This document shows positions 2,673-58,706 of a DNA stretch of 64,000 nucleotides, piece after piece. Numbering within the stretch: position 1 is the first letter of the stretch; each line of letters starts with the position of its first letter. Made by a program: the position numbers and the translations under genes. This stretch comes from Escherichia phage UE-S1. The notes below the pieces were generated by a model, which ran no database searches, was not told the DNA's origin, and was given only the letters and a program-made list of their open reading frames with translations. Location: the sequence record ON568341.1, one strand, 5' to 3'.

Positions 2673-2723
2673 GTTTTATATCGGAAGGGGAATAGTTCCC
2701 CTCCTAACAAAGAGGAAAGTATA

Positions 2724-3043: not shown

Positions 3044-3052
3044 AAATAATTG

Positions 3053-3191: not shown

Positions 3192-3219
3192 TTGCAAAGT
3201 ATCACGATAAGCGTATAAT
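3192..3219 (+). promoter_or_regulatory. sigma70-type promoter (TTGCAA-16-TATAAT)
   Basis: TTGCAA 3192-3197, TATAAT 3214-3219; structured ORF-less segment downstream. Confidence 0.5.
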
Positions 3220-3307
3220 GTTTTACATCAGGACGGGGAACGAAATAAGTAACCCCGTTAAGTAGTCCAGGAGTAAGACATACGAAAAACTCCCCTGATA
3301 AAATAGT

Positions 3308-3335
3308 TTGACAATAGAAAGTAAACGAGTATAAT
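3308..3335 (+). promoter_or_regulatory. sigma70-type promoter (TTGACA-16-TATAAT)
   Basis: TTGACA 3308-3313, TATAAT 3330-3335. Confidence 0.55.
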
Positions 3336-3368
3336 ACTTACATCAACCACTGATAAGGAAACATTAAA

Positions 3369-3644
3369 ATGCGGACTTTACTTACAGCTAACGAAATCGA
3401 GCAAGTACTGACTACTAATCTGGAACAATGGAAACGTGAAGCAGATATCCAGGCGGTTCAATGCCTTAACGATAAGTTAACGCCAGATGACTTAAGCACG
3501 ATTGTTGATCCACAATTTTATGAAGATATTCACGACACGTCTTTAAGCGTCGAGGATGTACTTGATAAGCACTACATTGATACTGATTTACATGTTTACG
3601 GTCGTAAAAACTTTATCACTATTCACGACATTTACAATACTTAA
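3369..3644 (+). CDS. hypothetical early protein (91 aa)
   Basis: promoter and RBS upstream. Confidence 0.6.
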   Translation: MRTLLTANEIEQVLTTNLEQWKREADIQAVQCLNDKLTPDDLSTIVDPQFYEDIHDTSLSVEDVLDKHYIDTDLHVYGRKNFITIHDIYNT

Positions 3645-3647
3645 GTA

Positions 3648-3675
3648 TTGACAAAGTATCTTAGTACTGTATAAT
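3648..3675 (+). promoter_or_regulatory. sigma70-type promoter (TTGACA-16-TATAAT)
   Basis: TTGACA 3648-3653, TATAAT 3670-3675. Confidence 0.55.
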
Positions 3676-3731
3676 AGTTTACATCAAGCGAGGGGAATGG
3701 TTCCCCTCCTAACAAAGAGAGAGAAATAAAA

Positions 3732-4055
3732 ATGGCTATGATCCTTACCCAGAAAGTAGAACTGAAAATTGTAACCTCCTTTGACATTAAAGTTAATCGG
3801 TGGACTGATAGCCACGGCAATACTTACCACTCCTGCTACGTGTCCGCATTGATTGGTGATCGCTGGGAAGACCTGGGACACGAAACCTTTACATACGGTT
3901 ACGGCACACAAGGCGAGTACACGGGTTTAGAAATCATTAAGGAAACTGTAATAGGTTTCAACCCGAAAGAGAAAGTACTACACAGAATTGAGAAAGAGAT
4001 CAACAAAGAAATTACAGTTCGCTACTACGATGTAAAACGTAAGAAAGACATGTAA
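3732..4055 (+). CDS. hypothetical early protein (107 aa)
   Basis: promoter, GGGGAATGGTTCCCC hairpin, RBS. Confidence 0.6.
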   Translation: MAMILTQKVELKIVTSFDIKVNRWTDSHGNTYHSCYVSALIGDRWEDLGHETFTYGYGTQGEYTGLEIIKETVIGFNPKEKVLHRIEKEINKEITVRYYDVKRKKDM

Positions 4056-4077
4056 TAGAATCCATTTAAAGTACTAT

Positions 4078-4106
4078 TTGACATTGCCCAGATAGTACTT
4101 TATAAT
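4078..4106 (+). promoter_or_regulatory. sigma70-type promoter (TTGACA-17-TATAAT)
   Basis: TTGACA 4078-4083, TATAAT 4101-4106. Confidence 0.55.
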
Positions 4107-4150
4107 AGACTCTAACTTGTAGTACTAACTCAACTAATAGGATGTATACC

Positions 4151-4546
4151 ATGATTACTAAATTCTACGCTACCCGTGAAGCTGCCCGTATTGTTGCACG
4201 CGAGGAAGGAGCAGCATTTAAAGACATGGGCAAAGATGCAACGAAAGGTCAACGCTGGGCCGTACAGTTCAAAGAAATCTCTGATATTGTGAATTCACCT
4301 GAGCCAGTACTGACAGCAGCAGAACTAAAACGAGCGGATATGCTGGCGGCAATACTTGACGCACAAGATGAGTTTATCGCTGACTCTGATATCAAAGTAC
4401 AGGTAAACCACACCGCATGGACTCACGCGGATCACCTGGCAAACCTTAAGCGTCCAAGTGAACTGATTCGCAACCAGAAAGAGATCCGACATGATCGTAA
4501 GGGTAATCGTGTAACAGTATACAGTAAACGCCGCCAGGTTATCTAA
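4151..4546 (+). CDS. hypothetical protein (131 aa; alternative start 4142)
   Basis: AGGA RBS 9 nt upstream of ATG 4151; intrinsic terminator follows. Confidence 0.6.
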   Translation: MITKFYATREAARIVAREEGAAFKDMGKDATKGQRWAVQFKEISDIVNSPEPVLTAAELKRADMLAAILDAQDEFIADSDIKVQVNHTAWTHADHLANLKRPSELIRNQKEIRHDRKGNRVTVYSKRRQVI

Positions 4547-4568
4547 TAACTTGCAGTACTAACAACAC

Positions 4569-4593
4569 GGCGGGATCAGTTCCCGCCTTTTTT
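4569..4593 (+). terminator. rho-independent terminator
   Basis: GGCGGGA / TCCCGCC stem followed by TTTTTT. Confidence 0.7.
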
Positions 4594-4607
4594 ATAGGAC
4601 AAACAAA

Positions 4608-4862
4608 ATGATTAAGGTTCAACTATATAAAGATAACATCTTACGGGTACACTATAAAGCACCTCAGAGAATCATCACAAAGGCCGTACAGCTTGCTAAT
4701 GAGTTTATTAATGGTAACCTATTACCTAGGAAGTTAAGCAACGGAAAACTGCGTGTAATCGACGTGGACACTAACAACAGGATAGTAATCGAGAACACAG
4801 GAAAAATAAACCTATATGAACACCAACAATACAATAAGAAAATAAAACTAATATCACGTTGA
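4608..4862 (+). CDS. hypothetical protein (84 aa)
   Basis: RBS GGACAAACAAA upstream. Confidence 0.5.
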   Translation: MIKVQLYKDNILRVHYKAPQRIITKAVQLANEFINGNLLPRKLSNGKLRVIDVDTNNRIVIENTGKINLYEHQQYNKKIKLISR

Positions 4863-4887
4863 CAGTACTCAAATGTTTTAGTATTAT
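4859..4887 (+). promoter_or_regulatory. sigma70-type promoter (TTGACA-17-TATTAT), duplicated unit A
   Basis: 60-bp promoter/5-prime UTR block nearly identical to 5135-5191. Confidence 0.5.
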
Positions 4888-4915
4888 GTACACATACCAA
4901 CACGGGAGAAACAAA

Positions 4916-5134
4916 ATGAAATTATCTAAAATCGAAAAGAAAACTATTGATGAAGCAGTTAAGCACGGTTATACCTTTCGTAATGATTCACATTTTACCA
5001 ATTTTCAACAGGGGTATCGTACTATTAAAAAACTAATTGACAAAGGTTTATTAGTTGAAGTCAATAATGGGAACGGTATCGAGTATCAGCCAACCCAAGA
5101 CGCATTATCTTTAAAGAAATATAATATTATCTAA
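4916..5134 (+). CDS. hypothetical protein (72 aa)
   Basis: ATG 4916 after GGGAGAAACAAA RBS; track ORF from 4859 includes the promoter. Confidence 0.55.
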   Translation: MKLSKIEKKTIDEAVKHGYTFRNDSHFTNFQQGYRTIKKLIDKGLLVEVNNGNGIEYQPTQDALSLKKYNII

Positions 5135-5163
5135 TTGACAGTACTCAAATGTTTTAGTACTAT
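5135..5163 (+). promoter_or_regulatory. sigma70-type promoter (TTGACA-17-TACTAT), duplicated unit B
   Basis: copy of 4859-4887 block. Confidence 0.5.
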
Positions 5164-5191
5164 ATGTACATACCAACACGGGGGAAACAAA

Positions 5192-5434
5192 ATGATTACT
5201 TTAGAAAAACGTATCAAAGAAACTACATCGCTGGTGGAACTGTTAACAGTACTCAAATGTAAAACAACACCATTTAGCACGCCGGACTTTATTAATATGG
5301 TTGATGTTAATGGTCGCTATCGTATCACGGTCGAACAAGGAGCGGCGAAAGTATTCAGTACTAAAAACACGAAGGAAGTGATCCACGCCGTTAATGTTAA
5401 AAAAGTAGTTGCCATTGATAGTAAAGTACTGTAA
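5192..5434 (+). CDS. hypothetical protein (80 aa)
   Basis: ATG 5192 after GGGGGAAACAAA RBS. Confidence 0.55.
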   Translation: MITLEKRIKETTSLVELLTVLKCKTTPFSTPDFINMVDVNGRYRITVEQGAAKVFSTKNTKEVIHAVNVKKVVAIDSKVL

Positions 5435-5465
5435 TATAGTTTCATTAACTCAAGGAGAACATGCA

Positions 5466-6050
5466 ATGCGTAATTATACTAAATTCATCCGTACACTGTC
5501 AGAAATGGAAACCAACAAAGAGATCCTTTCAGCTTGTCGGTTAGCTGGCCTGGAGATCATCGGTGCTGGTTCTTCCCGTATAGTTTTCGCTTTAAATGAT
5601 CGGTTAGTGATTAAGGTCGCGAATTGTGATGCGGGTGTAGAACAAAATGAAACTGAATGTAAGGTATGGAATTTTTTAGACTATGACCGCCCTCAGTTGA
5701 AACAGTACTTTGCAAAGGTGCATATGCATTTATGCGATCCTGATAATATGTTTATCGTTATGGATCGGTTGAGTACTGCAAGCAAAGGTAGTGTGAAGCA
5801 CGTAAACGCGTGCAATGAATTAAAGTACAATATTAAACGTAATGCAATCGAACGCCATCACCGCTTTGCTGATGCACTACAACACGTCGATGATACATTA
5901 TCAACACTAACGATAAGAGATATCAGAAAACAGAATATCGGCCAGGATCGTAATGGCCTTATTAAAGTACTTGATTACGGTTTAACCTGCAATATCTGGA
6001 ATCAGTACTATAAAAAGCGTGATGTGGCAGCAAGTAAGGTAACACGATAA
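5466..6050 (+). CDS. putative minimal Hanks-type protein kinase-like protein
   Basis: GAGSSRIV (Gly loop), VIK (lysine), IRDIRKQNIG (catalytic loop), LDYG (DFG-like) in canonical order; RBS AAGGAGAA. Confidence 0.45.
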   Translation: MRNYTKFIRTLSEMETNKEILSACRLAGLEIIGAGSSRIVFALNDRLVIKVANCDAGVEQNETECKVWNFLDYDRPQLKQYFAKVHMHLCDPDNMFIVMDRLSTASKGSVKHVNACNELKYNIKRNAIERHHRFADALQHVDDTLSTLTIRDIRKQNIGQDRNGLIKVLDYGLTCNIWNQYYKKRDVAASKVTR

Positions 6051-6059
6051 AAAAGATTA

Positions 6060-6100
6060 AAAAAGGGATTGACTCCGGTCAGTCCCTTTGCTATTATATA
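6060..6100 (+). promoter_or_regulatory. repeated promoter-like dyad element, copy 2
   Basis: TTGACT 6069-6074, TATTAT 6092-6097. Confidence 0.55.
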
Positions 6101-6191
6101 TCCATTGAGAGATAACTCACTGACCCATAGGGTGCGGAAGTGTATCTATTATATAAGTATTCAGTACTGAAAACTATTTTTAAAAAAGTAC

Positions 6192-6219
6192 TTGCAAACT
6201 ATCTCAATGAGCGTATAAT
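6192..6219 (+). promoter_or_regulatory. sigma70-type promoter (TTGCAA-16-TATAAT)
   Basis: copy of promoter at 3192-3219. Confidence 0.55.
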
Positions 6220-6274
6220 GTTTTATATCGAGAGGGGGAAATGGTTCTCCCTAGTACTAAAAGGAATCAAGACG

Positions 6275-6496
6275 ATGACTACTATGACCTGCGTTCACGC
6301 TTCAAATCTTCTGAATGATGCAGCATTTAAAGCAGGTGAAGAATATCAATGCTATCGGGATGAAAATAAAAAAGTTTTTGTAGTTGATAATAATGGTTTC
6401 CATATTGAATTACAATCCGGCTTCACTGGTTTAAATGGTAAATCAGTATGGGGCGTACAGGATGATAAAGGTACATATCATTTTAAACGTAATTAA
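6275..6496 (+). CDS. hypothetical protein (73 aa)
   Basis: ATG 6275 after hairpin and AAAAGGAA RBS; track start 6140 lies upstream of the promoter. Confidence 0.5.
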   Translation: MTTMTCVHASNLLNDAAFKAGEEYQCYRDENKKVFVVDNNGFHIELQSGFTGLNGKSVWGVQDDKGTYHFKRN

Positions 6497-6499
6497 GTA

Positions 6500-6527
6500 T
6501 TGACAAAGTATATCAGTACTGTATAAT
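6500..6527 (+). promoter_or_regulatory. sigma70-type promoter (TTGACA-16-TATAAT)
   Basis: TTGACA 6500-6505, TATAAT 6522-6527. Confidence 0.55.
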
Positions 6528-6577
6528 AGTTTACATCAAGGGGAGAATGGTTCTCCCCACTAAAAGGAAACAAAATT

Positions 6578-6850
6578 ATGTCCAGCTACTCCGCTACTAT
6601 GATCATTAAAGATATGAACGGTAATCCTACTTCTGCTGGTGGATCATTTGGAAACATTAATTTAGATGGTCGGTTATCCATGCAATCAGCCATCGATGCA
6701 GCGAAAGAAGTTTTTAAGAATGAATGTACTGTTAGTAAGCTGGATTATATGGGTTTCGCTATCGAGAAAACTACTCGTTTTGTGAACTACAAAAATCCAC
6801 TGATGATTGATACTAACCTGAAAGCTAACGAAGTGGGGTACTTATTATGA
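6578..6850 (+). CDS. hypothetical protein (90 aa)
   Basis: promoter, hairpin, RBS. Confidence 0.6.
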   Translation: MSSYSATMIIKDMNGNPTSAGGSFGNINLDGRLSMQSAIDAAKEVFKNECTVSKLDYMGFAIEKTTRFVNYKNPLMIDTNLKANEVGYLL

Positions 6851-7038
6851 CAGTAGAAGAAGTAAAAAAAGTACTGGCAGTACTACGATATCATAATCAT
6901 TGCAAGGTGAAGAATGATCCTGATTATCTTGATTCATCCCTGGAGGAAGACACCTTGAACGCTATAAGCCATATGCAGACATTAGCAAAGCGTATGACTG
7001 AAAAGAACATGCCGGACTATATCGGAAATAAAATTTAA
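6847..7038 (+). CDS. hypothetical protein (63 aa)
   Basis: ATGA overlap with upstream gene. Confidence 0.5.
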   Translation: MTVEEVKKVLAVLRYHNHCKVKNDPDYLDSSLEEDTLNAISHMQTLAKRMTEKNMPDYIGNKI

Positions 7039-7045
7039 AAAGTAC

Positions 7046-7073
7046 TTGCATTGTAGTTAGATTAACGTATAAT
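7046..7073 (+). promoter_or_regulatory. sigma70-type promoter (TTGCAT-16-TATAAT)
   Basis: TTGCAT 7046-7051, TATAAT 7068-7073. Confidence 0.5.
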
Positions 7074-7124
7074 GTTTTATATCGAGAGGGGAAATGGTTT
7101 CCCCTCAAGTCCAGGAGATACACC

Positions 7125-7388
7125 ATGAACACTATCGAAATCACTATCAATGCACACGTATACGACAACGTAGTACTGCAAACTACTATGACCGCCAATG
7201 ATACCAGTACTTTGCGGAATACTGTTATTAGTGCTGTATGTGCCGCTATCGGTGATGTATCCCTGGAAAATTCAGAACACATCAACAACGGTTTCACTAT
7301 GTGCAAACGTGATAACGCAAAACATATCATCGTGGAAGGTTACGGCGGTGTAGAATTTAATGTTTATATGAAAAAAGTACTTGCATAA
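7125..7388 (+). CDS. hypothetical protein (87 aa)
   Basis: promoter, hairpin, RBS CAGGAGA. Confidence 0.6.
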   Translation: MNTIEITINAHVYDNVVLQTTMTANDTSTLRNTVISAVCAAIGDVSLENSEHINNGFTMCKRDNAKHIIVEGYGGVEFNVYMKKVLA

Positions 7389-7408
7389 TAACTAAAACAA
7401 AGTATAAT
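7381..7408 (+). promoter_or_regulatory. sigma70-type promoter (TTGCAT-16-TATAAT)
   Basis: overlaps 3-prime end of preceding gene. Confidence 0.5.
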
Positions 7409-7455
7409 GTTTTGCATAGGGGGAGATATCCTCCCCCACTAAAAGGAGTAATAAA

Positions 7456-7680
7456 ATGGCTAACTTTGATGAACTGATGCGGGAAGTAGCTTACCTGGCA
7501 GAAGAGAAGAAATCATTCGATTCTATCTATAACACCGCTCACCGTGATTCAGTACTGGCATGTAACCAGGATCAAAAAGATGAACTAATCGCCACCTATC
7601 ATGAAGCATGGAAGTACTACCGACAATGGGAGAAAGAAGAAAGTGAGTCTACCATTGACGGCCTCAATAATCTAATCTAA
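7456..7680 (+). CDS. hypothetical protein (74 aa)
   Basis: promoter, GGGGGAGATATCCTCCCCC hairpin, RBS. Confidence 0.6.
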   Translation: MANFDELMREVAYLAEEKKSFDSIYNTAHRDSVLACNQDQKDELIATYHEAWKYYRQWEKEESESTIDGLNNLI

Positions 7681-7699
7681 AAGTTTTATTTCAGTACTA

Positions 7700-7728
7700 T
7701 TGACATAGCTTGATAGTACTGATGTAAT
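7700..7728 (+). promoter_or_regulatory. sigma70-type promoter (TTGACA-17-TGTAAT)
   Basis: TTGACA 7700-7705. Confidence 0.5.
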
Positions 7729-7756
7729 AACTTTACTAACTACAAGGGGAAACATA

Positions 7757-8014
7757 ATGGATCAATTCACACAATATCGGGTAAATCCTCAAGCTATGGC
7801 CTACGTAGAAGACCATAAAACGTTACCAGTACTGCAACCAGTTAAAGGCCGTATCTATCGTGGCCTTGCCTGGGATACGGCCCAGGATGGATATAAAACC
7901 GTCGCCGTGGGTATGTATTGCGGTGATGGTGAATGGTTTGATCCAAATAATCCGGTATCCATTGACAGTACTGAAAAAATGAAATGGGCCGACTACATCG
8001 AAGATATTTCATAA
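7757..8014 (+). CDS. hypothetical protein (85 aa)
   Basis: promoter and RBS upstream. Confidence 0.6.
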   Translation: MDQFTQYRVNPQAMAYVEDHKTLPVLQPVKGRIYRGLAWDTAQDGYKTVAVGMYCGDGEWFDPNNPVSIDSTEKMKWADYIEDIS

Positions 8015-8021
8015 AAACTAT

Positions 8022-8049
8022 TTGACAGTACTAACCAGTAATGTATAAT
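8022..8049 (+). promoter_or_regulatory. sigma70-type promoter (TTGACA-16-TATAAT)
   Basis: TTGACA 8022-8027, TATAAT 8044-8049. Confidence 0.55.
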
Positions 8050-8104
8050 GTTTTACATAGAGCGGGGGAATAGTTCTCCCGCCAATAGTTTGGAGTAAAA
8101 CATT

Positions 8105-25582: not shown

Positions 25583-26022
25583 GTTTAGCAAGTGCACTTA
25601 AACTGGCACACAAAATACATCACTTCCACGATAACATAAAAAGTGGGTTTTATGGTGATAAAGTACATACATATGGAAATGAATATTATCTATCAGGTGT
25701 GACAAGATACTCTAATGATATTTTACTTATGGGATGTGATAAAGATAACTTCATGCAGTACACGTCATGTAGCTTATACACTAATTTTATTGTATATATG
25801 CCTGGTGCTAATATTACATTTGACACATCAAATACCTCGGTAGATTTTGGAATACTGGATGGGCCGTGGGGGACTGAAGAGTATTACTTCCAACAGAGTT
25901 TTATTTTCAGCCAAGAAATGCTTGATTCCTTGGTTGTTTTGTGGTACTTTAAGGAATTAGATATAGAACCCTTCTTTATGGACTGGGGGGCGTGTGAGTA
26001 TTTAGAGACAGAGGTATATTAA
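25579..26022 (+). CDS. FamB paralog, subfamily B2
   Basis: motif EEYYFQQSFIFS..LVVLWYFKE. Confidence 0.65.
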   Translation: MSLASALKLAHKIHHFHDNIKSGFYGDKVHTYGNEYYLSGVTRYSNDILLMGCDKDNFMQYTSCSLYTNFIVYMPGANITFDTSNTSVDFGILDGPWGTEEYYFQQSFIFSQEMLDSLVVLWYFKELDIEPFFMDWGACEYLETEVY

Positions 26023-26510
26023 TGTCATTGCAGAGTGCATTAAAAGAGGCAAAGAAGATTCATGAGTACATGATTATGGTACAGGAAGGTTTAGTGCCTG
26101 GTGTATACAAAACATCAGATACGGAATTCTTTGTTCTGGACAGGGATGATTATGATGAGTCCGAGGTACATGCTGAAACATTAGTTCTGCACACTGATAC
26201 TGGTGATAGTGACAACTGTGAATATCATATGTACAATCAATACATTAGTTATTGCCGTAATGAAGATATTACCATCTACAACACAGATATTGATGCTGAT
26301 GACACTATCATTCCATATTCAGTTCTGGAAGGTCCGTGGGATAGTGAAGAGTATTACTTTCAGAATAGTACTATCTACAGTGAAGAAGAACTGGATGTTA
26401 TTGTGATTATGTGGTACTTTAAAAGTATTGACTCCAGTAGTTTCTATTTTGATTATGAATATGTAGAGAATACAGTAGGAGAAGGTAATGTCATTACAAA
26501 GTGCTCTTGA
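26022..26510 (+). CDS. FamB paralog, subfamily B2
   Basis: motif EEYYFQNSTIYS; near-duplicate of 24637-25110. Confidence 0.65.
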   Translation: MSLQSALKEAKKIHEYMIMVQEGLVPGVYKTSDTEFFVLDRDDYDESEVHAETLVLHTDTGDSDNCEYHMYNQYISYCRNEDITIYNTDIDADDTIIPYSVLEGPWDSEEYYFQNSTIYSEEELDVIVIMWYFKSIDSSSFYFDYEYVENTVGEGNVITKCS

Positions 26511-28004: not shown

Positions 28005-28537
28005 TGAAAGTTAACATTAATGACTTTGATGCATTACAAGATTTATCAAAAAAGATTCGCACCATCGTACCAGTACTTAAAAAATGCAGTACTGGTTTAA
28101 TCGATCCTAGTACTGTTGTTAATGAGAAGTACAATTTTCATCGTGTATTACAGGGGACAGGTGCATTTCAGAAGTGTGAGGTACGTGAGAAACATGTAAT
28201 TGATACATCGTTGTTTTCTATTGGTGCACCTGTGTCAAACAATACTATTTTCCTGGATGCCTCTGGAAATATTCAACAATTAACATTTAAGAAAAGGAAA
28301 AAGAATAATAACATTGGTGTGTACGCGATGAAGTGGGGACAGCCAGCGTTGATGCGTGACATTCACATTCCTAAGTACAATTTCAATGCATTTGAAGAAC
28401 AGTGTTTTCAACTTTCTTGTACTGACCCTGACTATGCTATCATTCAATTCTATATGGAATTGCAGATTGCATTTAATAGTAATTTGTATATTAACTTATT
28501 GGCAATGAACATAGATGAAGTATTCAAAAACATTTAA
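28001..28537 (+). CDS. FamB-like paralog
   Basis: motif EEQCFQLSCTDP (divergent). Confidence 0.5.
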   Translation: MMKVNINDFDALQDLSKKIRTIVPVLKKCSTGLIDPSTVVNEKYNFHRVLQGTGAFQKCEVREKHVIDTSLFSIGAPVSNNTIFLDASGNIQQLTFKKRKKNNNIGVYAMKWGQPALMRDIHIPKYNFNAFEEQCFQLSCTDPDYAIIQFYMELQIAFNSNLYINLLAMNIDEVFKNI

Positions 28538-42845: not shown

Positions 42846-42890
42846 TAAAAAAAACGCACATGGAGTGCATATGAAGATCAAGGATAGATC

Positions 42891-43364
42891 ATGGAGATTA
42901 AAACTGTTGAAAATGGGAAAATTGATGACATTTTAGACTTGGACGCATTCAAAGTTCATGATATAATGTTTAATGTGAAGGACATTATTCAATGTCTGTT
43001 TTTATGCAGCAAGACTATGCATGATTTTTTTCACAACCCGAATACTAATGTTTTTATACTTACAATCAGTACTGAAAACTCGTTTATCATGGGTATGCCC
43101 ATGAGTACAAATGAACAGTATATTGATTGTGTTATTCGCAATAATGATTGTATTACCCCACAATCTGAAGTTCGCAAAAAGAAAAACACTTACACAATCA
43201 AAGATGATAAAATCATGATGTGTTGCAGTAAAGGATTTATATTGGACAATTTCATCGTCAAAGATAGTTATCATGACTTTAAAATTTCCGAAAATCAATC
43301 CAATGTAGTTCTTTATGCTAGTGATATCGAAAGTTTAACAGTCAAAGATCCTAGTTTGGAGTAA
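42891..43364 (+). CDS. hypothetical protein (157 aa)
   Basis: ORF track. Confidence 0.5.
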   Translation: MEIKTVENGKIDDILDLDAFKVHDIMFNVKDIIQCLFLCSKTMHDFFHNPNTNVFILTISTENSFIMGMPMSTNEQYIDCVIRNNDCITPQSEVRKKKNTYTIKDDKIMMCCSKGFILDNFIVKDSYHDFKISENQSNVVLYASDIESLTVKDPSLE

Positions 43365-43366
43365 GT

Positions 43367-43498
43367 ATGGCTAAGAAAGTAAACAATTTCGTACAGAAAC
43401 ACATGAATGAGTTTAACAAGCCTCAGACACATGTGGATCGTAAAAAAGAAATGAAAAATGGTAAAGTAAAACACAAGTCGAGATTTATTCTCGACTAA
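43367..43498 (+). CDS. hypothetical small basic protein (43 aa)
   Basis: ATG after GGAGT RBS; lysine-rich; ends inside terminator hairpin; not in track. Confidence 0.3.
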   Translation: MAKKVNNFVQKHMNEFNKPQTHVDRKKEMKNGKVKHKSRFILD

Positions 43499-43505
43499 TT
43501 TTTTG
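43477..43505 (+). terminator. rho-independent terminator
   Basis: GTCGAG / CTCGAC stem followed by TTTTTT. Confidence 0.5.
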
Positions 43506-43527
43506 TCTAAATTTTTGAGGATTGTAT

Positions 43528-44376
43528 ATGTTGGACATTTCAGATTTTCTTAATTTTAAAAAGTATTCAGTACTTGAACATATCAACGAATTTCTGAATT
43601 CCCCAACACCATTTGGTATCAGTACATCAGATTCATACGATGGATATAGAATCTTCCCATGCAATGACTTTCAAATTTCTGTCAAAAAAGGTTTTACAAA
43701 AGAAGTTGCAATTCGTGATGTAGTAATGTATAGCGATTCTTCTATTTCTTACTGTCATGATGTGAACAATTTTGAATCTCTTTCAACACCTAATTGTTCA
43801 TACTACAAATCCCATGACACGATGATGTATAAAGAACAACATATCAATGGTGTTTCGTTCTACAAAACTAGCAGTGATAAATCATATACATCTAGAGATG
43901 ATTTTGGAAAATACACATGTACTATGCACACGGATAATGAAAAAACAAATTACACTCATTCATTCGAGTCCAAATTCCAAGAGAGTGAAGTTTCAAATAT
44001 CACTATACAAGAACAGGTTTCAGAAGGCATTGTATATCGTAGTACTGCATTCTTTCGCATGAAAGATGTTGCCACAGGCAGACCAATGATGTACAATATT
44101 GACATATACATGAAAGGTGATATATCAGAAGTAGTGATTAGTACTGGTTATCGTGAAAAATATACAGTTACAATGGAATCACCAGATGCATCGTTAGTTC
44201 ACCTCTTTAACAATTTATATACATTCCAATTCGAACTTAGTTTAGACTACAATGAATATCAAATATTCGATATATTAAAAAGTAATATTATTAATAAGTT
44301 AGAATATTACTACAAGTTAGGTGGTAAGATGTGCATAGTTAATACTATGTTACATAACATAAAAGAAACATTATAA
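43528..44376 (+). CDS. hypothetical protein, possible divergent FamB (283 aa)
   Basis: ATG 43528 after GAGG RBS; C-terminal YTFQFELSLDY. Confidence 0.5.
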   Translation: MLDISDFLNFKKYSVLEHINEFLNSPTPFGISTSDSYDGYRIFPCNDFQISVKKGFTKEVAIRDVVMYSDSSISYCHDVNNFESLSTPNCSYYKSHDTMMYKEQHINGVSFYKTSSDKSYTSRDDFGKYTCTMHTDNEKTNYTHSFESKFQESEVSNITIQEQVSEGIVYRSTAFFRMKDVATGRPMMYNIDIYMKGDISEVVISTGYREKYTVTMESPDASLVHLFNNLYTFQFELSLDYNEYQIFDILKSNIINKLEYYYKLGGKMCIVNTMLHNIKETL

Positions 44377-44392
44377 ATCTGGAGGATTTGGT

Positions 44393-44686
44393 ATGGATAC
44401 TAAATTCAAAATTATTTTTAAAACTAAGCCGTATATTCCACATACAGCAGAACGTTTTATACCACATGATGCAGAGGAAATTATTCATCAAGATGGTACA
44501 AAGTTATATCTAGTGCCATGTTCATATGAACGTGCAGTAGAAATGTTACTCATGAATTCTAAATTATGTACAAACAAGTACATTAGTTACTTATATAATG
44601 AACATATTTTAGATTTTAATGATGAAAATATGTTTATTCTGGCAATTGAAGATTTTAATAATTGGTACAACATTATTAAAATCTGA
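44393..44686 (+). CDS. hypothetical protein (97 aa)
   Basis: RBS GGAGGA upstream. Confidence 0.5.
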   Translation: MDTKFKIIFKTKPYIPHTAERFIPHDAEEIIHQDGTKLYLVPCSYERAVEMLLMNSKLCTNKYISYLYNEHILDFNDENMFILAIEDFNNWYNIIKI

Positions 44687-44693
44687 TAAAATA

Positions 44694-44731
44694 TTGTGAA
44701 CATATTAAATCTTTATGATATAATGTTCACA
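44694..44731 (+). promoter_or_regulatory. promoter flanked by 9-bp inverted repeat (TGTGAACAT / ATGTTCACA)
   Basis: TTGTGA -35 and TATAAT 44719-44724 lie inside a perfect palindrome; candidate operator. Confidence 0.45.
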
Positions 44732-44756
44732 TCTTTTTTTGATAATGGAGATATAG

Positions 44757-45143
44757 ATGAATACAAGTTCAATCCTAAAAGCAATTGGTGGTGTTTTACT
44801 TATTGAAGTGAAAGGTGAACCAAAACTGTGCTGTTTGGAAGATATGAAGAATACAAAACACTTCAGTACTGGTCAGATTTTTAATGCCATTCGTGTTCTA
44901 AATGATAAATCAATCGCTGATTATGGTAAAGTTTGGCCTGTATATCAAAACGCAGATGGTGATATCAGTTCTGACTGGAAAACCATTGAAGCAGTCCGAC
45001 AAAGTTGTGATAGCGACTGGGACTTCATTGTAGAAGTATGTGACCAACTTCAAGAAGATGTACCAGAAATTGTGGAACGAAAGGAAGTTCTGGCAAATCT
45101 AGAAAAGTTCCGTCATGGAACACTACCATATGATACAATCTAA
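44757..45143 (+). CDS. hypothetical protein (128 aa)
   Basis: RBS GGAGATA; downstream of palindromic promoter. Confidence 0.5.
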   Translation: MNTSSILKAIGGVLLIEVKGEPKLCCLEDMKNTKHFSTGQIFNAIRVLNDKSIADYGKVWPVYQNADGDISSDWKTIEAVRQSCDSDWDFIVEVCDQLQEDVPEIVERKEVLANLEKFRHGTLPYDTI

Positions 45144-45193
45144 TCTACTTATTAAAAAATAGCTAGTTAACATTATATAAAAAGGAATTTAAA

Positions 45194-45499
45194 ATGGAAG
45201 ATAATGGAATGAAATTTGATATGTTTGAGGGTGTACCTGAGTTTGATTTTAACAAACTAGAAAATGGTGAAGAGTCAGAACTCGTTAGTGTTACACTTAA
45301 AGCAGATTCTAAAAAGAAATATTCATCAACGGTACGTTCACGTTCACAAGAAGAATATGAATCTTTCATTGAGAGTATTCATTATGAAACATTATATCAT
45401 AAAGATGGAACTCCATATGAAGTACGTGTAACAGTACTGAAGCCTGAAGTGAATCCAATGGAAAATCTACGTCCTGTTTACTGCTGGGCAAGTCACTAA
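45194..45499 (+). CDS. hypothetical protein (101 aa)
   Basis: RBS AAGGAA; terminator follows. Confidence 0.5.
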   Translation: MEDNGMKFDMFEGVPEFDFNKLENGEESELVSVTLKADSKKKYSSTVRSRSQEEYESFIESIHYETLYHKDGTPYEVRVTVLKPEVNPMENLRPVYCWASH

Positions 45500-45508
45500 T
45501 AAACCAAT

Positions 45509-45537
45509 GGACGGGATTTCATATCTCGTCCTTTTTT
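45509..45537 (+). terminator. rho-independent terminator
   Basis: GGACGGGAT / ATCTCGTCC imperfect stem plus TTTTTT. Confidence 0.5.
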
Positions 45538-45550
45538 ATATGGAGATTTT

Positions 45551-46405
45551 ATGAAACTTTATCTAATAGTTGACTATAATAAGGATTATGCTGGTAACTT
45601 CACCGAAGATTCGGATGGATATTGCACATCGACTAATGTCAATGTACGTAGCAGTAGTGCTCATGAACATGAATCTTGTAAAAATCTAAAAGATTTTATC
45701 ACATACCGAGCATTTGAAAAGAACTTCTGCCGCAGTAGATATTCTAAGTTTGAGTACCCATTAATTGATGTTCCTGATGAATTGATGTTCCAGCTAATGT
45801 TAACTGGAGTTCAAGATTATGATTATATTGCTTATAATCACATAACAAAGAAGATTTACATTGGAACATCAGTACACGATACTTCCATGTATGCATCATG
45901 CCCAGATGATCGAATGAAGCATAGAAATTCATACTATAGTGGATCAGTTGGTTCAAATAATTCATCAAATAAAAATTCATTCTTTGAGTACGTGTATGAT
46001 TACCATCACGAGAAAAAAGAACGTGAAGATTACTGTATAGAGATTGATAGTACTAATGGATATGAAGACGTAAAAGAAGCTCTTATGCCATACATTATAG
46101 AAAAATACTACAAAGATTTTCAGTACTGTAGTAATTTTCTAATCAGAAATTCTATTCAAATCGGTCGTCAATCCACTGCATACGCTATGTACTACAGTGA
46201 TTCTCCAGTTGTAGCAGGAAATGAAAGGGGTGATATCCTACCAATTCCACGTGAAGATATGACATTCATTTTTACATCTTTTATTGAGGATGATGAATTG
46301 TACGTTAAAAATAAGCATCGTTTCATGCCAAGTAAAATTGAGATTATTAGAAGCATCAGTGTTGATATATTAACCAATTTTACTGAAAAAACTGAATATA
46401 ACTGA
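45551..46405 (+). CDS. hypothetical protein with FamB-like motif (284 aa)
   Basis: motif DELMFQLMLTGV at residues 67-78; RBS GGAGA. Confidence 0.55.
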   Translation: MKLYLIVDYNKDYAGNFTEDSDGYCTSTNVNVRSSSAHEHESCKNLKDFITYRAFEKNFCRSRYSKFEYPLIDVPDELMFQLMLTGVQDYDYIAYNHITKKIYIGTSVHDTSMYASCPDDRMKHRNSYYSGSVGSNNSSNKNSFFEYVYDYHHEKKEREDYCIEIDSTNGYEDVKEALMPYIIEKYYKDFQYCSNFLIRNSIQIGRQSTAYAMYYSDSPVVAGNERGDILPIPREDMTFIFTSFIEDDELYVKNKHRFMPSKIEIIRSISVDILTNFTEKTEYN

Positions 46406-46435
46406 GACAAAATAGAAGTTAATGATATAATGTGA

Positions 46436-46463
46436 GGTGACAGTATATACTGTCACCTTTTTT
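46436..46463 (+). terminator. rho-independent terminator
   Basis: GGTGACAGTAT / ATACTGTCACC stem followed by TTTTTT. Confidence 0.7.
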
Positions 46464-46554
46464 AATCCTGAAAGGTTCCTATAAGGAAATGATTAAAAGC
46501 CTAATCCACTCGAAAATGTAGAGGGTAGATGAGTAGTCCTTTCAGTACGAACAG

Positions 46555-46664
46555 CAGAAGAAACCCGTCAGATGTGGGCATAGTTTGAACCCCTCACGGC
46601 AATGCGGCTCAGAAGAAACCCGTCAGATGTGGGCATAGTTTGAACCCCTCACGGCAATGCGGCT
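46555..46664. repeat. perfect 55-bp direct tandem repeat (2 copies)
   Basis: CAGAAGAAACCCGTCAGATGTGGGCATAGTTTGAACCCCTCACGGCAATGCGGCT at 46555-46609 and 46610-46664. Confidence 0.9.
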
Positions 46665-47083
46665 GTATAAAGAACTCCAATAGGATAAAGAGAGTTCCTC
46701 GATAGACATATAAGGATCGCACCTTACCAATTATCTAAGGGAGATTTCATAAGAAATATGCGGTCGGAATTATACAATATAGTTGCGTCCAAATTTTGTG
46801 AAATCAAATACAAGTACTGGTCATATGGTATTTGTATTATGTGTCGGGATGTTTAAGACCGACGACCGTTGCTACAAGAACCGCGATAGAGAGAAACAGA
46901 GCAACCCGCTTTCGTCTCGTAAGAGAATTCGTGATATGAACTATGTGAAGGCCACCAGCGTCAAACTTTTTTGTTCTTTCCCCTGCGGGGGGATGAAATA
47001 TGCTCAAGCAAACCTCGTCAATATTAATTAAAAGACTTTATAATACTTGTAGAATTGTACATGCACCGCATGGAGAATTCTAC

Positions 47084-47106
47084 TGATGTTGATGTAATCA
47101 ACATCA
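47084..47106. promoter_or_regulatory. palindrome TGATGTTGAT-gta-ATCAACATCA upstream of gene 47137
   Basis: 10-bp perfect arms, 3-bp spacer, ~30 bp before ATG. Confidence 0.4.
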
Positions 47107-47136
47107 CGTATATTCATTGATGTTTCCATAGGAATA

Positions 47137-47682
47137 ATGATGGCATTTATTAAAAAAGAAAAAACTATTACTTATAAAACTTTGAATTTTGATGATTGTA
47201 TTAATCAATCACAGGACGAAAATATTTTTACTGGATATGTGGTTATTAAAGAAAAAGGATGCATTTCTTATATAAAGGAATTGCAAAATGGCATTGAAGT
47301 CACTTCAGTTAAATTACTTCCTACACAAAAACCAACAATATCAAAAGCCCAGTACGGTAATTATTTCGAGGAAAGATACAGTAATAATTTAATAAGTGTT
47401 AAAGCTCATATTGTAAAAGGAGAACTAGAAGGAGAATATAGAAAATTCAACCCACAAGGAAAATGTGTTTGGGTTAAATACTACAATTCAGGTGTTGACA
47501 TAACATCTGAAATTATTGAGTTTTTAGGATTGACATGTACACCTGAAACTCTTCATGACTACAAATTTAATACTGAAGAAGAGTTTAATCTGATGATGCG
47601 TTATGGATCACATTTTAAATTTTTATATGAATATAACGTTGACAGTAGTATTTTTGATAAAATAGTACATAATTGTCTATAA
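47137..47682 (+). CDS. hypothetical protein (181 aa)
   Basis: ORF track; first gene after noncoding island. Confidence 0.55.
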   Translation: MMAFIKKEKTITYKTLNFDDCINQSQDENIFTGYVVIKEKGCISYIKELQNGIEVTSVKLLPTQKPTISKAQYGNYFEERYSNNLISVKAHIVKGELEGEYRKFNPQGKCVWVKYYNSGVDITSEIIEFLGLTCTPETLHDYKFNTEEEFNLMMRYGSHFKFLYEYNVDSSIFDKIVHNCL

Positions 47683-47698
47683 CAAAAGGATTTATATA

Positions 47699-48220
47699 AT
47701 GTCGAAGAAGGATACTTCGAATAAACATTCAGTACATTTCAGTACTGGAAAAGATAACTGGACAACCCCAAAAGATTTTTTTGAAGATTTAGATGAGTTA
47801 TGGGGATTTACACTTGATGCTGCTTGTGTAGATGAGACTGCATTGTGTGATAATTTTTTCACTCCAGAAGATGATTCACTGTCACAGGATTGGGGAAATA
47901 ATATAGTTTGGTTGAATCCACCATATAGTGACTTAAAAACATGGTTATCTAAAGCTGTAGATGCATATAATAACGGAGCAACTGTAGTTATTCTTGTACC
48001 CTCAAGAACCGATACAATTGCTTTTCAGGATTATGCTGCTAAAATATGTGATTGTATTTGTTTTATTAAGGGAAGATTGCGATTTGGTATACCAGAAGAA
48101 CCCGATAAGAAAACTGATTCAGCACCATTTCCTTCGTGTCTGATAGTTCTGGATAAGTACTTAACCACTGCTAAAATCAATTGTCTTAAATCTCTCGGAT
48201 TGGTGATGAAGAATTTATGA
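47699..48220 (+). CDS. dam: DNA N6-adenine methyltransferase, phage Dam type
   Basis: catalytic NPPY motif (WLNPPYSD) and overall resemblance to small phage Dam methylases; 173 aa. Confidence 0.75.
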   Translation: MSKKDTSNKHSVHFSTGKDNWTTPKDFFEDLDELWGFTLDAACVDETALCDNFFTPEDDSLSQDWGNNIVWLNPPYSDLKTWLSKAVDAYNNGATVVILVPSRTDTIAFQDYAAKICDCICFIKGRLRFGIPEEPDKKTDSAPFPSCLIVLDKYLTTAKINCLKSLGLVMKNL

Positions 48221-49915: not shown

Positions 49916-49920
49916 TATAT

Positions 49921-49947
49921 AGCCCGACATAAGTTCGGGCTATTTTT
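49921..49947 (+). terminator. rho-independent terminator
   Basis: AGCCCGA / TCGGGCT stem followed by ATTTTTG. Confidence 0.65.
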
Positions 49948-53630: not shown

Positions 53631-53654
53631 GCCAGCGTTTGCTGGTCTTTTTTC
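53631..53654 (+). terminator. rho-independent terminator
   Basis: CCAGC / GCTGG stem followed by TCTTTTTTC. Confidence 0.55.
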
Positions 53655-53666
53655 GCAGGTACAAAG

Positions 53667-58677: not shown

Positions 58678-58706
58678 AAAAGGGATCAATGTATGATCCC
58701 TTTTTC
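58678..58706 (+). terminator. rho-independent terminator
   Basis: AAAGGGATCA / TGATCCCTTT stem plus T-run. Confidence 0.65.

What the first reader, a model, noticed from the sequence alone, without database searches (positions are those of the whole stretch)
44694..44731. Promoter embedded in a perfect 9-bp inverted repeat
TGTGAACAT at 44695-44703 and ATGTTCACA at 44723-44731 bracket the -10 hexamer of the promoter for gene 44757-45143. A palindrome overlapping the polymerase-binding site is the typical layout of a repressor-controlled promoter; this is one of few promoters here that looks regulated rather than constitutive.
Basis: seen in the sequence. Interest (0 to 1): 0.45.

Follow-up and report, generated by a model that had tools for sequence, protein, structure and literature searches.

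The report
Ordinary phage promoter, incidental palindrome
The 9-bp inverted repeat is really there and it does enclose a genuine, conserved jumbo-phage promoter, but the repeat is just the promoter's own -35 box happening to match the bases after its -10 box, so there is no evidence for a repressor binding site.

Summary
TGTGAACAT (44695-44703) and ATGTTCACA (44723-44731) form a perfect 9-bp inverted repeat with a 19-bp spacer.

The window comes from an Asteriusvirus, a 121Q/PBECO4-like jumbo coliphage. The repeat encloses a real promoter: TGAACA, 16 bp, then TGaTATAAT. That promoter is conserved in 13 Asteriusvirus relatives and, at the same position, in 7t3-like phages and GAP32. It is an ordinary member of a genome-wide class, [T/G]G[G/A]ACA-N16-TGnTATAAT-GTT, with 22 strict members in 121Q.

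The repressor-operator reading is not supported:
- The left arm is the -35 box. The right arm is the end of the -10, the class-typical GTT, and CACA up to the predicted start site.
- The palindrome is perfect in only 6 of 13 relatives, and most carry TGGACA.
- It is absent in other genera that keep the promoter.
- It occurs once in the 348.5-kb 121Q genome, where random genomes give 1.8 +/- 1.2, and half-sites are not enriched.
- Nine-bp inverted repeats are common in the window (34 observed, about 17 expected by chance).
- No DNA-binding gene lies next to it.

A weak-terminator reading (hairpin plus U-run) is not excluded, but it gets no strand, loop-size or covariation support. The feature is ordinary and of low interest.

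The most striking side observation is a roughly 12-fold genome-wide excess of the palindrome AGTACT.

The parts
44688..44693 (+). A-rich UP-like stretch (AAAATA) just upstream of the -35 box
   Evidence: Nearly invariant across 13 relatives. Class members in 121Q have AAAAATAgt at the same place. RpoD-like promoters with UP-like elements are described for the related phage CBB (PMC5259590).
44695..44703 (+). Left arm of the inverted repeat, TGTGAACAT
   Evidence: It varies among relatives: TGTGGACAT, TGTGGACAA, TCTGGACAT.
44697..44702 (+). -35 box TGAACA (TGGACA in most relatives), 16 bp from the -10
   Evidence: Promoter scan. The invariant columns T.TG.ACA match the box. The same box and spacing occur in 22 promoters of 121Q and in four others in the window.
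44716..44724 (+). Extended -10, TGaTATAAT
   Evidence: Invariant in 13 relatives. Also present in 7t3/Kae01 (TGATATAAT) and GAP32 (TGGTATAAT).
44723..44731 (+). Right arm ATGTTCACA: the last 2 bases of the -10, the discriminator GTTCAC, and the predicted start-site A at 44731
   Evidence: A->G at 44729 in 4 of 13 relatives. TATAAT-GTT is typical of the class. The same 18-mer TGATATAATGTTCACATC occurs at a second 121Q promoter that lacks the left arm. The start site is inferred from spacing and has not been mapped.
44734..44740 (+). T7 run in the short leader; it would serve as a U-tract only under the terminator rival
   Evidence: 5-8 T in all 13 relatives. Absent in 7t3 and GAP32.
44747..44750 (+). 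Shine-Dalgarno GGAG, 6 nt before the ATG at 44757
   Evidence: Read from the sequence. Invariant in relatives.
44757..45143 (+). First gene of the unit: 128 aa, acidic (pI 4.7), function unknown (phrog_15570)
   Evidence: The single-sequence AlphaFold model was unusable (pLDDT 45).
45194..45499 (+). Second gene of the unit: 101 aa, acidic, function unknown (phrog_16531)
45509..45531 (+). Tight-loop intrinsic terminator (9-bp stem, 5-nt loop, T6) that most likely ends the transcription unit
   Evidence: Folds at -13.8 kcal/mol, z -3.7. ARNold annotates the homologous site in G17.
44393..44686 (+). Upstream gene (97 aa, unknown function), whose stop codon lies 8 nt before the left arm

Best explanation
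The site is an ordinary sigma-70-family promoter of an Asteriusvirus jumbo phage. Its parts are an A-rich upstream stretch (44688-44693), a -35 box TGAACA (44697-44702), a 16-bp spacer and an extended -10 TGaTATAAT (44716-44724). The predicted start is A44731. The leader is 26 nt with a GGAG ribosome site.

The promoter drives a two-gene unit (44757-45143 and 45194-45499) that ends at the tight terminator 45509-45531.

It belongs to a genome-wide class, [T/G]G[G/A]ACA-N16-TGnTATAAT-GTT. This class is read by host RNA polymerase carrying either host sigma-70 or the phage's own RpoD-like sigma. It is probably a middle or delayed-early class.

The inverted repeat has no separate function. The left arm is the -35 box plus three flanking bases. 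The right arm is the end of the -10, the class-typical GTT, and CACA. Class consensus already makes ...ACA complementary to TGT.... The remaining matches arose by chance, or by quasi-palindrome correction, in one sub-lineage.

Shown here: sequence anatomy, conservation, class membership, uniqueness of the repeat, and chance expectation. Inferred: which sigma factor reads it, the start site, the timing, and the extent of the unit.
For: 1. Promoter anatomy.
2. The block from the -10 to the ATG and into the first ~35 nt of the gene (44715-44790) is the conservation peak of the locus, with 83-87% invariant columns. The left-arm region has about 30%.
3. Within the left arm the invariant positions are T.TG.ACA, which is the -35 box. 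Most relatives have TGGACA, a better match to TTGACA.
4. A promoter persists at the same gene junction in other genera without the repeat: 7t3/Kae01 have GGGACA...TGATATAAT and GAP32 has TGAAACA...TGGTATAAT. RaK2 has only a 22-bp gap there.
5. There are 22 strict class members in 121Q. They sit before the primase, exonuclease, ClpP/ClpA-like, nudix and late-sigma genes (with annotation). Five are in the window. Ten of the 48 TGnTATAAT sites in 121Q that have a -35 match begin the discriminator with GTT.
6. The right-arm sequence recurs at a second 121Q promoter that has a canonical TTGACA and no left arm.
7. The repeat is unique and at chance level. It occurs once in 348.5 kb against 1.8 +/- 1.2 random; half-sites occur 8 times against 9.7 +/- 2.7. 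An IMG/VR scan gave 32 hits with scattered spacers, and apart from the homologous 121Q site they lie in contigs other than 121Q.
8. The literature describes RpoD-like and divergent RpoD-like (-35 TGAAACG) promoter classes in the relatives CBB and GAP32 (PMC5259590). It also reports a phage-encoded RpoD-like sigma in Asteriusvirus (PMC11895373 and PMC7247149).
Against: - No transcription start site, RNA-seq or binding data exist for any Asteriusvirus, so promoter activity and the lack of local regulation are inferred.
- Within Asteriusvirus, every relative keeps at least 8 of 9 positions pairable if G-U is allowed on the + strand, and all keep a T-run. That would also fit an RNA hairpin.
- Three of 22 class members carry a >=7-bp repeat linking the -35 to the start region, against 2.2% in a cross-paired control (P = 0.011). 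This falls to P = 0.075 once the ascertained case is removed.
- Sharing the 9-mer GTTCACATC with a second promoter is mildly unlikely by chance (my rough estimate is about 0.03) and is unexplained.
Confidence: 0.66

Rival explanations
1. The repeat acts at the RNA level. In transcripts reading through from the upstream genes (43522-44686), the two arms form a hairpin. Together with the following UCUUUUUUU, this works as a weak intrinsic terminator or insulator placed over the promoter. Transcripts that start at about 44731 lack the left arm and escape it.
For: - The hairpin folds at -10.9 kcal/mol, z = -2.85. It begins 8 nt after the upstream stop codon and is followed within 2 nt by T7.
- 98% of pair cells remain standard pairs across 13 relatives, because both variable positions change A<->G and give G-U on the + strand only.
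- All 13 relatives keep 5-8 T.
- The phage does overlap terminators with promoters elsewhere. GGGTTGAC-TTCG-GTCAGCCC-TTTT-TGCTATAAT occurs four times in 121Q, and a promoter directly abuts a hairpin at 46426-46459.
Against: - The 19-nt loop and only 3 G-C pairs are unlike this phage's real terminators, which have loops of 4-7 nt and fold at -13.6 to -16.7 kcal/mol.
- Tight-loop hairpin + T-run elements number 11 on the + strand, 3 on the - strand and 0.2 in random sequence. Elements with loops of 15-25 nt number 1 on +, 4 on - and 0.9 in random sequence.
- There are no compensatory double changes. Of four substitution events in the arms, two break pairing, which is what chance gives.
- Stability is not conserved: A4 folds at -6.0 kcal/mol (z = 0.1) and slurp01 has z = -0.8.
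- ARNold did not call this site in G17, although it called both neighbouring terminators.
- 7t3 and GAP32 keep the promoter without a hairpin or T-run.
- Promoter elements already explain the conservation of both arms.
Confidence: 0.16
2. The repeat is an operator. A dimeric phage or host repressor binds the two arms, occludes the -35 box and the start site, and switches the two-gene unit off at some stage of infection.
For: - The dyad is perfect in the window (9 bp) and in six other Asteriusvirus genomes: ELP-22 at 9 bp, and 121Q, G17, UB, SP27 and PBECO4 at 10 bp.
- It covers both polymerase contact regions, which is the classical repressor layout (established knowledge).
- Two other class members have 7-8-bp repeats in a similar position.
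Against: - DNA symmetry is broken at 1-3 positions in 7 of 13 relatives.
- The left-arm region is among the least conserved stretches of the locus.
- There is no second copy and no half-site enrichment in the window or in a whole relative genome.
- Half-site centres are 28 bp apart, about 2.7 helical turns, so they lie on different faces of the helix.
- The flanking gene products are acidic (pI 4.7-5.5) and have no Pfam, NCBIfam or PDB match to DNA-binding folds.
- The repeat is absent in other genera that keep the promoter.
- The perfection of the repeat in the window is an ascertainment effect, because the site was chosen for being perfect.
Confidence: 0.07
3. Host CRP binds a degenerate site overlapping the -10 (TGATA-TAATGT-TCACA, 44716-44731) and modulates the promoter.
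For: TCACA is a perfect CRP half-site, and TGATA lies 6 bp from it. My hand alignment to the 22-bp CRP consensus matches about 14 of 22 positions (read).
Against:
- The alternative left half lacks the critical G of TGTGA.
- The good half is changed to TCGCA in 4 of 13 relatives.
- TGATA is simply the extended -10.
Confidence: 0.03

Closest known systems
Extended -10 (TGn) sigma-70 promoters of E. coli and its lytic phages, such as the T4 early promoters
   Same: It has TATAAT preceded by TG one base upstream, a -35-like hexamer at 16-bp spacing, an A-rich upstream stretch and a purine 7 nt after the -10. It sits in front of short phage genes of unknown function.
   Different: The -35 box is TGAACA/TGGACA, and GGGACA or GAGACA in class relatives, rather than TTGACA or the T4 GTTTAC type. 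Activity and the sigma factor used are untested.
RpoD-like and 'divergent RpoD-like' (-35 TGAAACG) promoters predicted in the Rak2-like jumbo phages CBB and GAP32 (PMC5259590)
   Same: It comes from the same phage lineage, has a classic -10 with a non-canonical G/A-rich ...AC(A/G) -35 box, and is found before replication and metabolism genes. The GAP32 homologue of this very junction reads TGAAACA-N16/17-TGGTATAAT.
   Different: The Asteriusvirus box is G(G/A)GACA or TGGACA. As far as I could find, the class has not been described for Asteriusvirus. In CBB and GAP32 the promoters are predictions only.
Repressor operators overlapping promoters (lambda OR/OL, lac O1, LexA boxes)
   Same: There is dyad symmetry lying over polymerase contact sites.
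   Different: Known operators are conserved as dyads. They usually recur, in several operators or across a regulon. Their half-sites are about one helical turn apart, and they have a cognate binding protein. Here the dyad decays among close relatives, is unique in the genome, has half-sites 28 bp apart, and has no candidate binding protein.
Intrinsic (Rho-independent) terminators overlapping promoters
   Same: There is a hairpin followed within 2 nt by a U-run directly after a stop codon. This phage has real terminator-promoter fusions, with the GGGTTGAC-TTCG-GTCAGCCC-TTTT-TGCTATAAT module present four times in 121Q.
   Different: The real ones have 4-7-nt loops and G+C-rich stems. This one has a 19-nt loop that holds the promoter spacer and -10, and only 3 G-C pairs.

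Membership tests
Sigma-70-type extended -10 promoter | -10 hexamer close to TATAAT | tested here: met
   TATAAT at 44719-44724, a 6/6 match. Invariant in 13 relatives.
Sigma-70-type extended -10 promoter | TG motif one base upstream of the -10 | tested here: met
   TGaTATAAT at 44716-44724. Invariant in relatives.
Sigma-70-type extended -10 promoter | -35-like hexamer 16-18 bp upstream of the -10 | tested here: met
   TGAACA at 44697-44702, spacer 16, a 4/6 match in the window. TGGACA (5/6) in 7 of 13 relatives.
Sigma-70-type extended -10 promoter | Experimentally mapped transcription start and dependence on sigma-70 holoenzyme | not testable with these tools
   No TSS or RNA-seq data for Asteriusvirus were found.
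Asteriusvirus [T/G]G[G/A]ACA-N16-TGnTATAAT promoter class (defined here; cf. the divergent RpoD-like class of CBB/GAP32) | xGxACA box exactly 16 bp from a TGn-extended TATAAT, with an A-rich upstream stretch | tested here: met
   The finding satisfies the same rule that picks out 22 sites in 121Q and 5 in the window. Upstream AAAATA at 44688-44693.
Asteriusvirus [T/G]G[G/A]ACA-N16-TGnTATAAT promoter class (defined here; cf. the divergent RpoD-like class of CBB/GAP32) | Position directly upstream of a gene start, conserved across relatives | tested here: met
   The -10 ends 32 nt before the ATG. The arrangement is conserved in 13 Asteriusvirus genomes and, as a promoter, in 7t3, Kae01 and GAP32.
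Repressor operator overlapping a promoter | Dyad symmetry over polymerase contact sites | tested here: met
   A perfect 9-bp repeat spanning about -36 to +1 in the window.
Repressor operator overlapping a promoter | Both half-sites conserved as a dyad among relatives that keep the promoter | tested here: not met
   Watson-Crick symmetry is intact in 6 of 13 Asteriusvirus genomes and falls to 6-8 of 9 positions in the rest. There is no repeat in 7t3, Kae01 or GAP32.
Repressor operator overlapping a promoter | Recurrence of the site or half-site elsewhere in the genome (several operators or a regulon) | tested here: not met
   The window has no second copy, even with degenerate arms. In the whole 121Q genome there is 1 repeat against 1.8 +/- 1.2 random, and 8 half-sites against 9.7 +/- 2.7. 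The IMG/VR scan found the 121Q genome to hold the perfect repeat only at the homologous site.
Repressor operator overlapping a promoter | Half-sites spaced by an integral number of helical turns | tested here: not met
   The centre-to-centre distance is 28 bp, about 2.7 turns (from the coordinates; the criterion comes from established knowledge).
Repressor operator overlapping a promoter | A cognate DNA-binding protein, often encoded next to the operator | tested here: inconclusive
   The five flanking proteins have no Pfam, NCBIfam or PDB hits and are acidic. The rest of the genome and the host were not screened.
Repressor operator overlapping a promoter | Demonstrated binding and repression | not testable with these tools
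   This needs gel shift, pull-down or reporter assays.
Intrinsic terminator | G+C-rich stem with a short (3-8 nt) loop | tested here: not met
   The stem has 3 G-C pairs out of 9 and the loop is 19 nt. The phage's own terminators have 4-7-nt loops.
Intrinsic terminator | U-tract within 0-2 nt of the stem | tested here: met
   UC followed by U7 at 44732-44740. 5-8 T in all 13 relatives.
Intrinsic terminator | Elements of this type enriched on the transcribed strand | tested here: not met
   For loops of 15-25 nt: 1 on +, 4 on -, 0.9 in random sequence. For loops of 3-8 nt: 11 on +, 3 on -, 0.2 in random sequence.
Intrinsic terminator | Pairing maintained by compensatory changes | tested here: inconclusive
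   There are no double changes, two one-sided A<->G changes that give G-U, and two pair-breaking changes.
CRP binding site | TGTGA-N6-TCACA | tested here: not met
   TGTGA and TCACA are 27 nt apart. The alternative TGATA-N6-TCACA lacks the key G, and its good half is mutated to TCGCA in 4 relatives.

The most novel reading that the evidence does not exclude
Inverted repeats linking the -35 box to the start-site region may be a selected feature of this jumbo-phage promoter class. Three of 22 members in 121Q have 7-10-bp repeats of different sequence but similar placement. They could serve as read-through-insulating RNA hairpins, or as handles for a phage factor that recognises the dyad geometry rather than a fixed sequence. 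In that case the repeat in the finding would be functional even though its sequence is unique.
Probability: 0.08. Interest if true: 0.5.

Novelty: new member of a known kind. Interest (0 to 1): 0.12.

Why it matters
The finding itself matters little. It is one more sigma-70-family promoter in a phage with dozens of them, and the palindrome needs no regulator to explain it.

The useful by-products are:
- A first working definition of an Asteriusvirus promoter class, [T/G]G[G/A]ACA-N16-TGnTATAAT. It can guide annotation and promoter mining in these 350-kb phages, most of whose genes have no known function.
- A clear example of how a 'perfect palindrome over a promoter' can arise from the promoter's own consensus elements.

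Had the operator reading been right, it would have pointed to a local repressor circuit in a strictly lytic jumbo phage. The evidence does not support that.

Tried and rejected
1. Other copies of the repeat. I tried an exact and 1-mismatch search of the window, degenerate arms, an IMG/VR scan with spacers of 5-35, and the whole 121Q genome assembled from eight fetched pieces. Nothing exceeded chance.
2. Compensatory covariation in the arms. None was found. Extra lineages sought in IMG/VR and metagenomes added no new variants.
3. Known RNA families. Rfam over 43000-48000 at E <= 1 gave only a chance snoRNA hit elsewhere.
4. Function of the flanking genes. Pfam, NCBIfam and PDB sequence searches gave no hits, and PHROGs matched only families of unknown function. 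A single-sequence AlphaFold model of the 128-aa protein was unusable at pLDDT 45, so I ran no fold search. I ran no further search on it, because the gene's function would not change the verdict on the repeat.
5. An antisense promoter formed by the symmetric arm (TGAACA-N16-TAATAT on the - strand). Rejected, because that -10-like hexamer is not conserved (columns 47-52 of alignment A1).
6. An invertible promoter switch. Rejected, because 9-bp arms around 19 bp are far too short.
7. A CRP site. Rejected on spacing and conservation.
8. Evolution 'toward' a perfect repeat in the window's lineage (G->A in both arms). Rejected as evidence, because the site was chosen for being perfect, so relatives can only look worse.
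9. Literature on Asteriusvirus promoters and start sites. There is none. Only predictions for CBB, GAP32 and PA5oct exist.

Full report
**What is there.** The sequence reads ...TGA TAAAATAT TGTGAACAT ATTAAATCTTTATGATATA ATGTTCACA TCTTTTTTTGATAATGGAGATATAG ATG. TGTGAACAT occupies 44695-44703 and its reverse complement ATGTTCACA occupies 44723-44731. The spacer is 19 bp. The bases flanking the arms inside and outside are not complementary, so the repeat is exactly 9 bp.

**Where it comes from.** The window is 92% identical, across the 3-kb region searched, to the jumbo coliphages of genus Asteriusvirus: 121Q, PBECO4, G17, UB and Sharanji. The closest match for this locus is ELP-22 at 95%. About 155 short ORFs fill the window, 153 of them on the + strand. 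The finding lies between a 97-aa gene (44393-44686) and a 128-aa gene (44757-45143). All relatives annotate both as hypothetical.

**Is the repeat more than chance?** No.
- The window contains 34 perfect inverted repeats of >=9 bp with spacers up to 40, against 17.2 +/- 4.3 in Markov-1 random sequence. The excess is accounted for by tight terminators and a recurrent AGTACT motif.
- The 9-mer within one mismatch occurs 30 times, against 39 +/- 6 expected.
- In the complete 121Q genome (348,532 bp), a repeat with <=1 mismatch per arm and spacer 0-60 occurs once, at the homologous site. Random genomes give 1.8 +/- 1.2.
- The half-site occurs 8 times in that genome, against 9.7 +/- 2.7 expected.
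- An IMG/VR scan for the perfect repeat with any spacer of 5-35 returned 32 hits with scattered spacers. All but the homologous 121Q site lie in contigs other than 121Q. By my rough estimate, that is about what an 18-base pattern yields in a collection of that size.

**The promoter is real.**
- The consensus scan finds TGAACA (44697), 16 bp, TATAAT (44719-44724) with TG at 44716-44717.
- In an alignment of 13 Asteriusvirus genomes that are 74-95% identical over this locus, everything from TGATATAAT to the ATG is invariant apart from one A/G position, T-run length and two other positions.
- A sliding-window count shows that 44715-44790 is the conservation peak of the 1.8-kb locus, with 83-87% invariant columns. 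The stretch holding the left arm (44685-44714) has 33%.
- In other genera the homologous gene junction also carries a promoter. 7t3 and Kae01 have ttGGGACAgatgacaacTAAtgTGATATAAT, and GAP32 has gTGAAACAgaaTAAaaatttaTGGTATAAT. RaK2-type phages have only a 22-bp gap with a ribosome site.

**What the arms are.** Within the left arm the invariant columns are T.TG.ACA, which is the -35 box. Seven of 13 relatives carry TGGACA, a 5/6 match to TTGACA, and the window has TGAACA.

A census of TGnTATAAT sites in 121Q reveals a genome-wide promoter class: AAAAATAgt-[T/G]G[G/A]ACA-N16-TG(A/C)TATAAT, often followed by GTT.
- It has 22 strict members. They lie in front of the primase, exonuclease, ClpP- and ClpA-like, nudix and late-sigma genes, among others (with annotation).
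- The window has five members, with -10 boxes at 44719, 46426, 52556, 56442 and 60326.
- This matches the 'divergent RpoD-like' promoters (-35 TGAAACG) predicted before DNA-synthesis genes in the related phages CBB and GAP32 (PMC5259590).
- Asteriusviruses encode their own RpoD-like sigma factor (PMC11895373 and PMC7247149).

So the left arm is the class-defining -35 box plus three flanking bases. The right arm is the last two bases of the -10, the class-typical GTT, and CACA ending at the predicted start A44731. Class consensus already makes ...ACA complementary to TGT.... The same 18-mer, TGATATAATGTTCACATC, occurs at a second 121Q promoter (position 274149) with a canonical TTGACA box and no left arm. 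The right-arm sequence therefore exists independently of the dyad.

**The operator hypothesis.**
- As a DNA palindrome the site is intact in 6 of the 13 aligned genomes. In G17, UB, SP27 and PBECO4 (and in 121Q, which was not in the alignment) it is 10 bp. In the remaining 7 genomes only 6-8 of 9 positions stay complementary.
- It is absent from the other genera that keep the promoter.
- There is no second copy anywhere in a complete genome, and the half-sites are not enriched. The expression half of that criterion cannot be tested here.
- Half-site centres are 28 bp apart, about 2.7 helical turns, unlike the one-turn spacing of classical dimeric repressors (established knowledge).
- The five flanking proteins have no Pfam, NCBIfam or PDB match and are acidic, with pI 4.7-5.5, so no autoregulator is evident.
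- The apparent evolution toward perfection in the window's lineage is an ascertainment effect, because the site was picked for being perfect.

I put this hypothesis at about 7%.

**The terminator hypothesis.** On the + strand the arms could pair in read-through RNA, and UCU7 follows.
- For: the fold is -10.9 kcal/mol with z = -2.85. Both variable arm positions change A<->G, which gives G-U pairs only on the + strand, so 98% of cells remain paired.
- Against: there are no compensatory double changes. Two of four substitution events break pairs, which is what chance gives.
- Against: stability is not conserved (A4 at -6.0 kcal/mol, z = 0.1; slurp01 z = -0.8).
- Against: ARNold called both neighbouring terminators in G17 but not this site.
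- Against: the phage's real terminators are tight. Hairpin + T-run elements with 3-8-nt loops number 11 on the + strand, 3 on the - strand and 0.2 in random sequence. Elements with 15-25-nt loops number 1 (this one), 4 and 0.9.

I put this rival at about 16%.

**Is there a class-wide dyad?** I measured the longest repeat between the -35 region and the start region for the 22 class members in 121Q. The values are 10 (this site), 8, 7, and 3-5 for the rest. Cross-pairing left and right segments of different promoters gives >=7 in 2.2% of pairs. That gives P = 0.011 with the finding included and P = 0.075 with it excluded. This is suggestive only, and I carry it as the 'novel case' at about 8%.

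**Most likely mechanism.** Host RNA polymerase, carrying sigma-70 or the phage RpoD-like sigma, recognises the A-rich stretch, the TG(G/A)ACA box and the extended -10. It starts near A44731 and transcribes a 26-nt leader with GGAG (44747-44750). It then transcribes the two small acidic proteins (44757-45143 and 45194-45499) and stops at the tight terminator 45509-45531 (annotated in G17). Any temporal control comes from class-wide sigma or polymerase modification, not from this dyad. The anatomy, conservation, class membership and statistics are shown. The sigma factor, start site, timing and unit boundaries are inferred.

**Verdict.** This is a new member of a known kind and of low interest (0.12). 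The side observations listed separately are more unusual than the finding itself. The main ones are the ~12-fold genome-wide excess of AGTACT, the AGTACT-flanked early-promoter family, and a candidate small-RNA unit in 121Q.

Noticed in passing
whole window (for example 583-612, 843-883, 4067-4102, 7691-7722, 28069-28096); also L051 (121Q 20-70 kb) and L052 (GAP32 150-200 kb): The palindromic hexamer AGTACT occurs 204 times in the window, against 17 +/- 4 expected, a roughly 12-fold excess. It is the commonest palindromic hexamer, ahead of all the AT-only ones. It occurs in all three reading frames, about 2-fold enriched in intergenic DNA, with preferred context C-AGTACT-G. The excess is genome-wide and crosses genera: 121Q has 84 against 12, and GAP32 has 105 against 16. 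A literature search found nothing on it. The function is unknown.
   Followed up: partly
window 280-8100 (-10 boxes near 295, 613, 883, 2370, 3670, 4101, 6522, 8069): This is a repeated early-type promoter family: (A)AGTACT-a-TTGACA-N10-(t)AGTACTgTATAATagtttacat. It is usually followed by a leader hairpin GGGGAGAA...TTCTCCCC and a ribosome site, in front of very short genes. Because AGTACT is itself a palindrome, these promoters sit inside recurring inverted repeats. They are better candidates for a shared regulatory site than the finding.
   Followed up: partly
L056:5140-5330 = 121Q 274100-274290 (G17 locus L063:1740-1901); not in the window: This is a near-consensus promoter: an A-tract, TTGACA, N16, then TGTGATATAAT GTTCACATC. 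It shares an 18-mer with the finding and is followed about 75-110 nt later by an ARNold-annotated terminator. It lies in a 315-bp gap before the ATPase gene, and a 701-bp stretch containing it is >=99% identical in 21 of 35 relatives. It looks like a small-RNA transcription unit.
   Followed up: partly
121Q 98719, 109300, 110582, 112750 (L067); not in the window: There are four copies of a compact terminator-promoter fusion: aaaGGGTTGAC-TTCG-GTCAGCCC-TTTT-TGCTATAAT. The -35 box TTGACT forms the left half of a UUCG-tetraloop terminator stem.
   Followed up: no
window 46404-47136: A class promoter (GAGACA 46404, TGATATAAT 46423-46431) runs straight into a strong hairpin plus T-run (46434-46459, -16.7 kcal/mol, annotated as a terminator in G17). 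After it comes a stretch of about 680 bp with no convincing ORF before gene 47137. Rfam found nothing there.
   Followed up: no
window 45509-45531, 49919-49943, 53640-53660, 58678-58704, 42860-42875: Several intergenic hairpin + T-run elements are followed directly by a ribosome site and the next gene, with no promoter in between. This implies partial read-through, or a role as RNA 3'-end or stability elements.
   Followed up: no
window 44650-44684: A 13-bp perfect but entirely A+T-rich inverted repeat (AGATTTTAATAAT / ATTATTAAAATCT, 9-nt spacer) covers the last codons of gene 44393-44686, just upstream of the finding. It is not conserved in slurp01-type relatives and is probably chance.
   Followed up: partly
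window 26070-26154: ARAGORN calls an 85-nt tRNA-Cys (anticodon ACA) inside a gene-dense stretch overlapped by ORF 26022-26510. The tRNA cluster of 121Q lies elsewhere (72-78 kb), so this is probably a false positive.
   Followed up: no
IMG/VR loci L019, L023, L035, L040, L042, L045, L046: Unrelated viral contigs carry clusters of three to five copies of TGTGAACAT(TC)/GAATGTTCACA in both orientations within about 60 bp. These look like iteron or operator arrays in some other phage group. They show what a real binding-site family built on this 9-mer looks like.
   Followed up: no
whole window: At least a dozen G+C-rich palindromic hexamers (GACGTC, CTGCAG, CCATGG, CAGCTG, AGGCCT, AGCGCT and others) have zero occurrences in 64 kb. 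This suggests restriction-site avoidance alongside the AGTACT excess. No expectation was computed.
   Followed up: no
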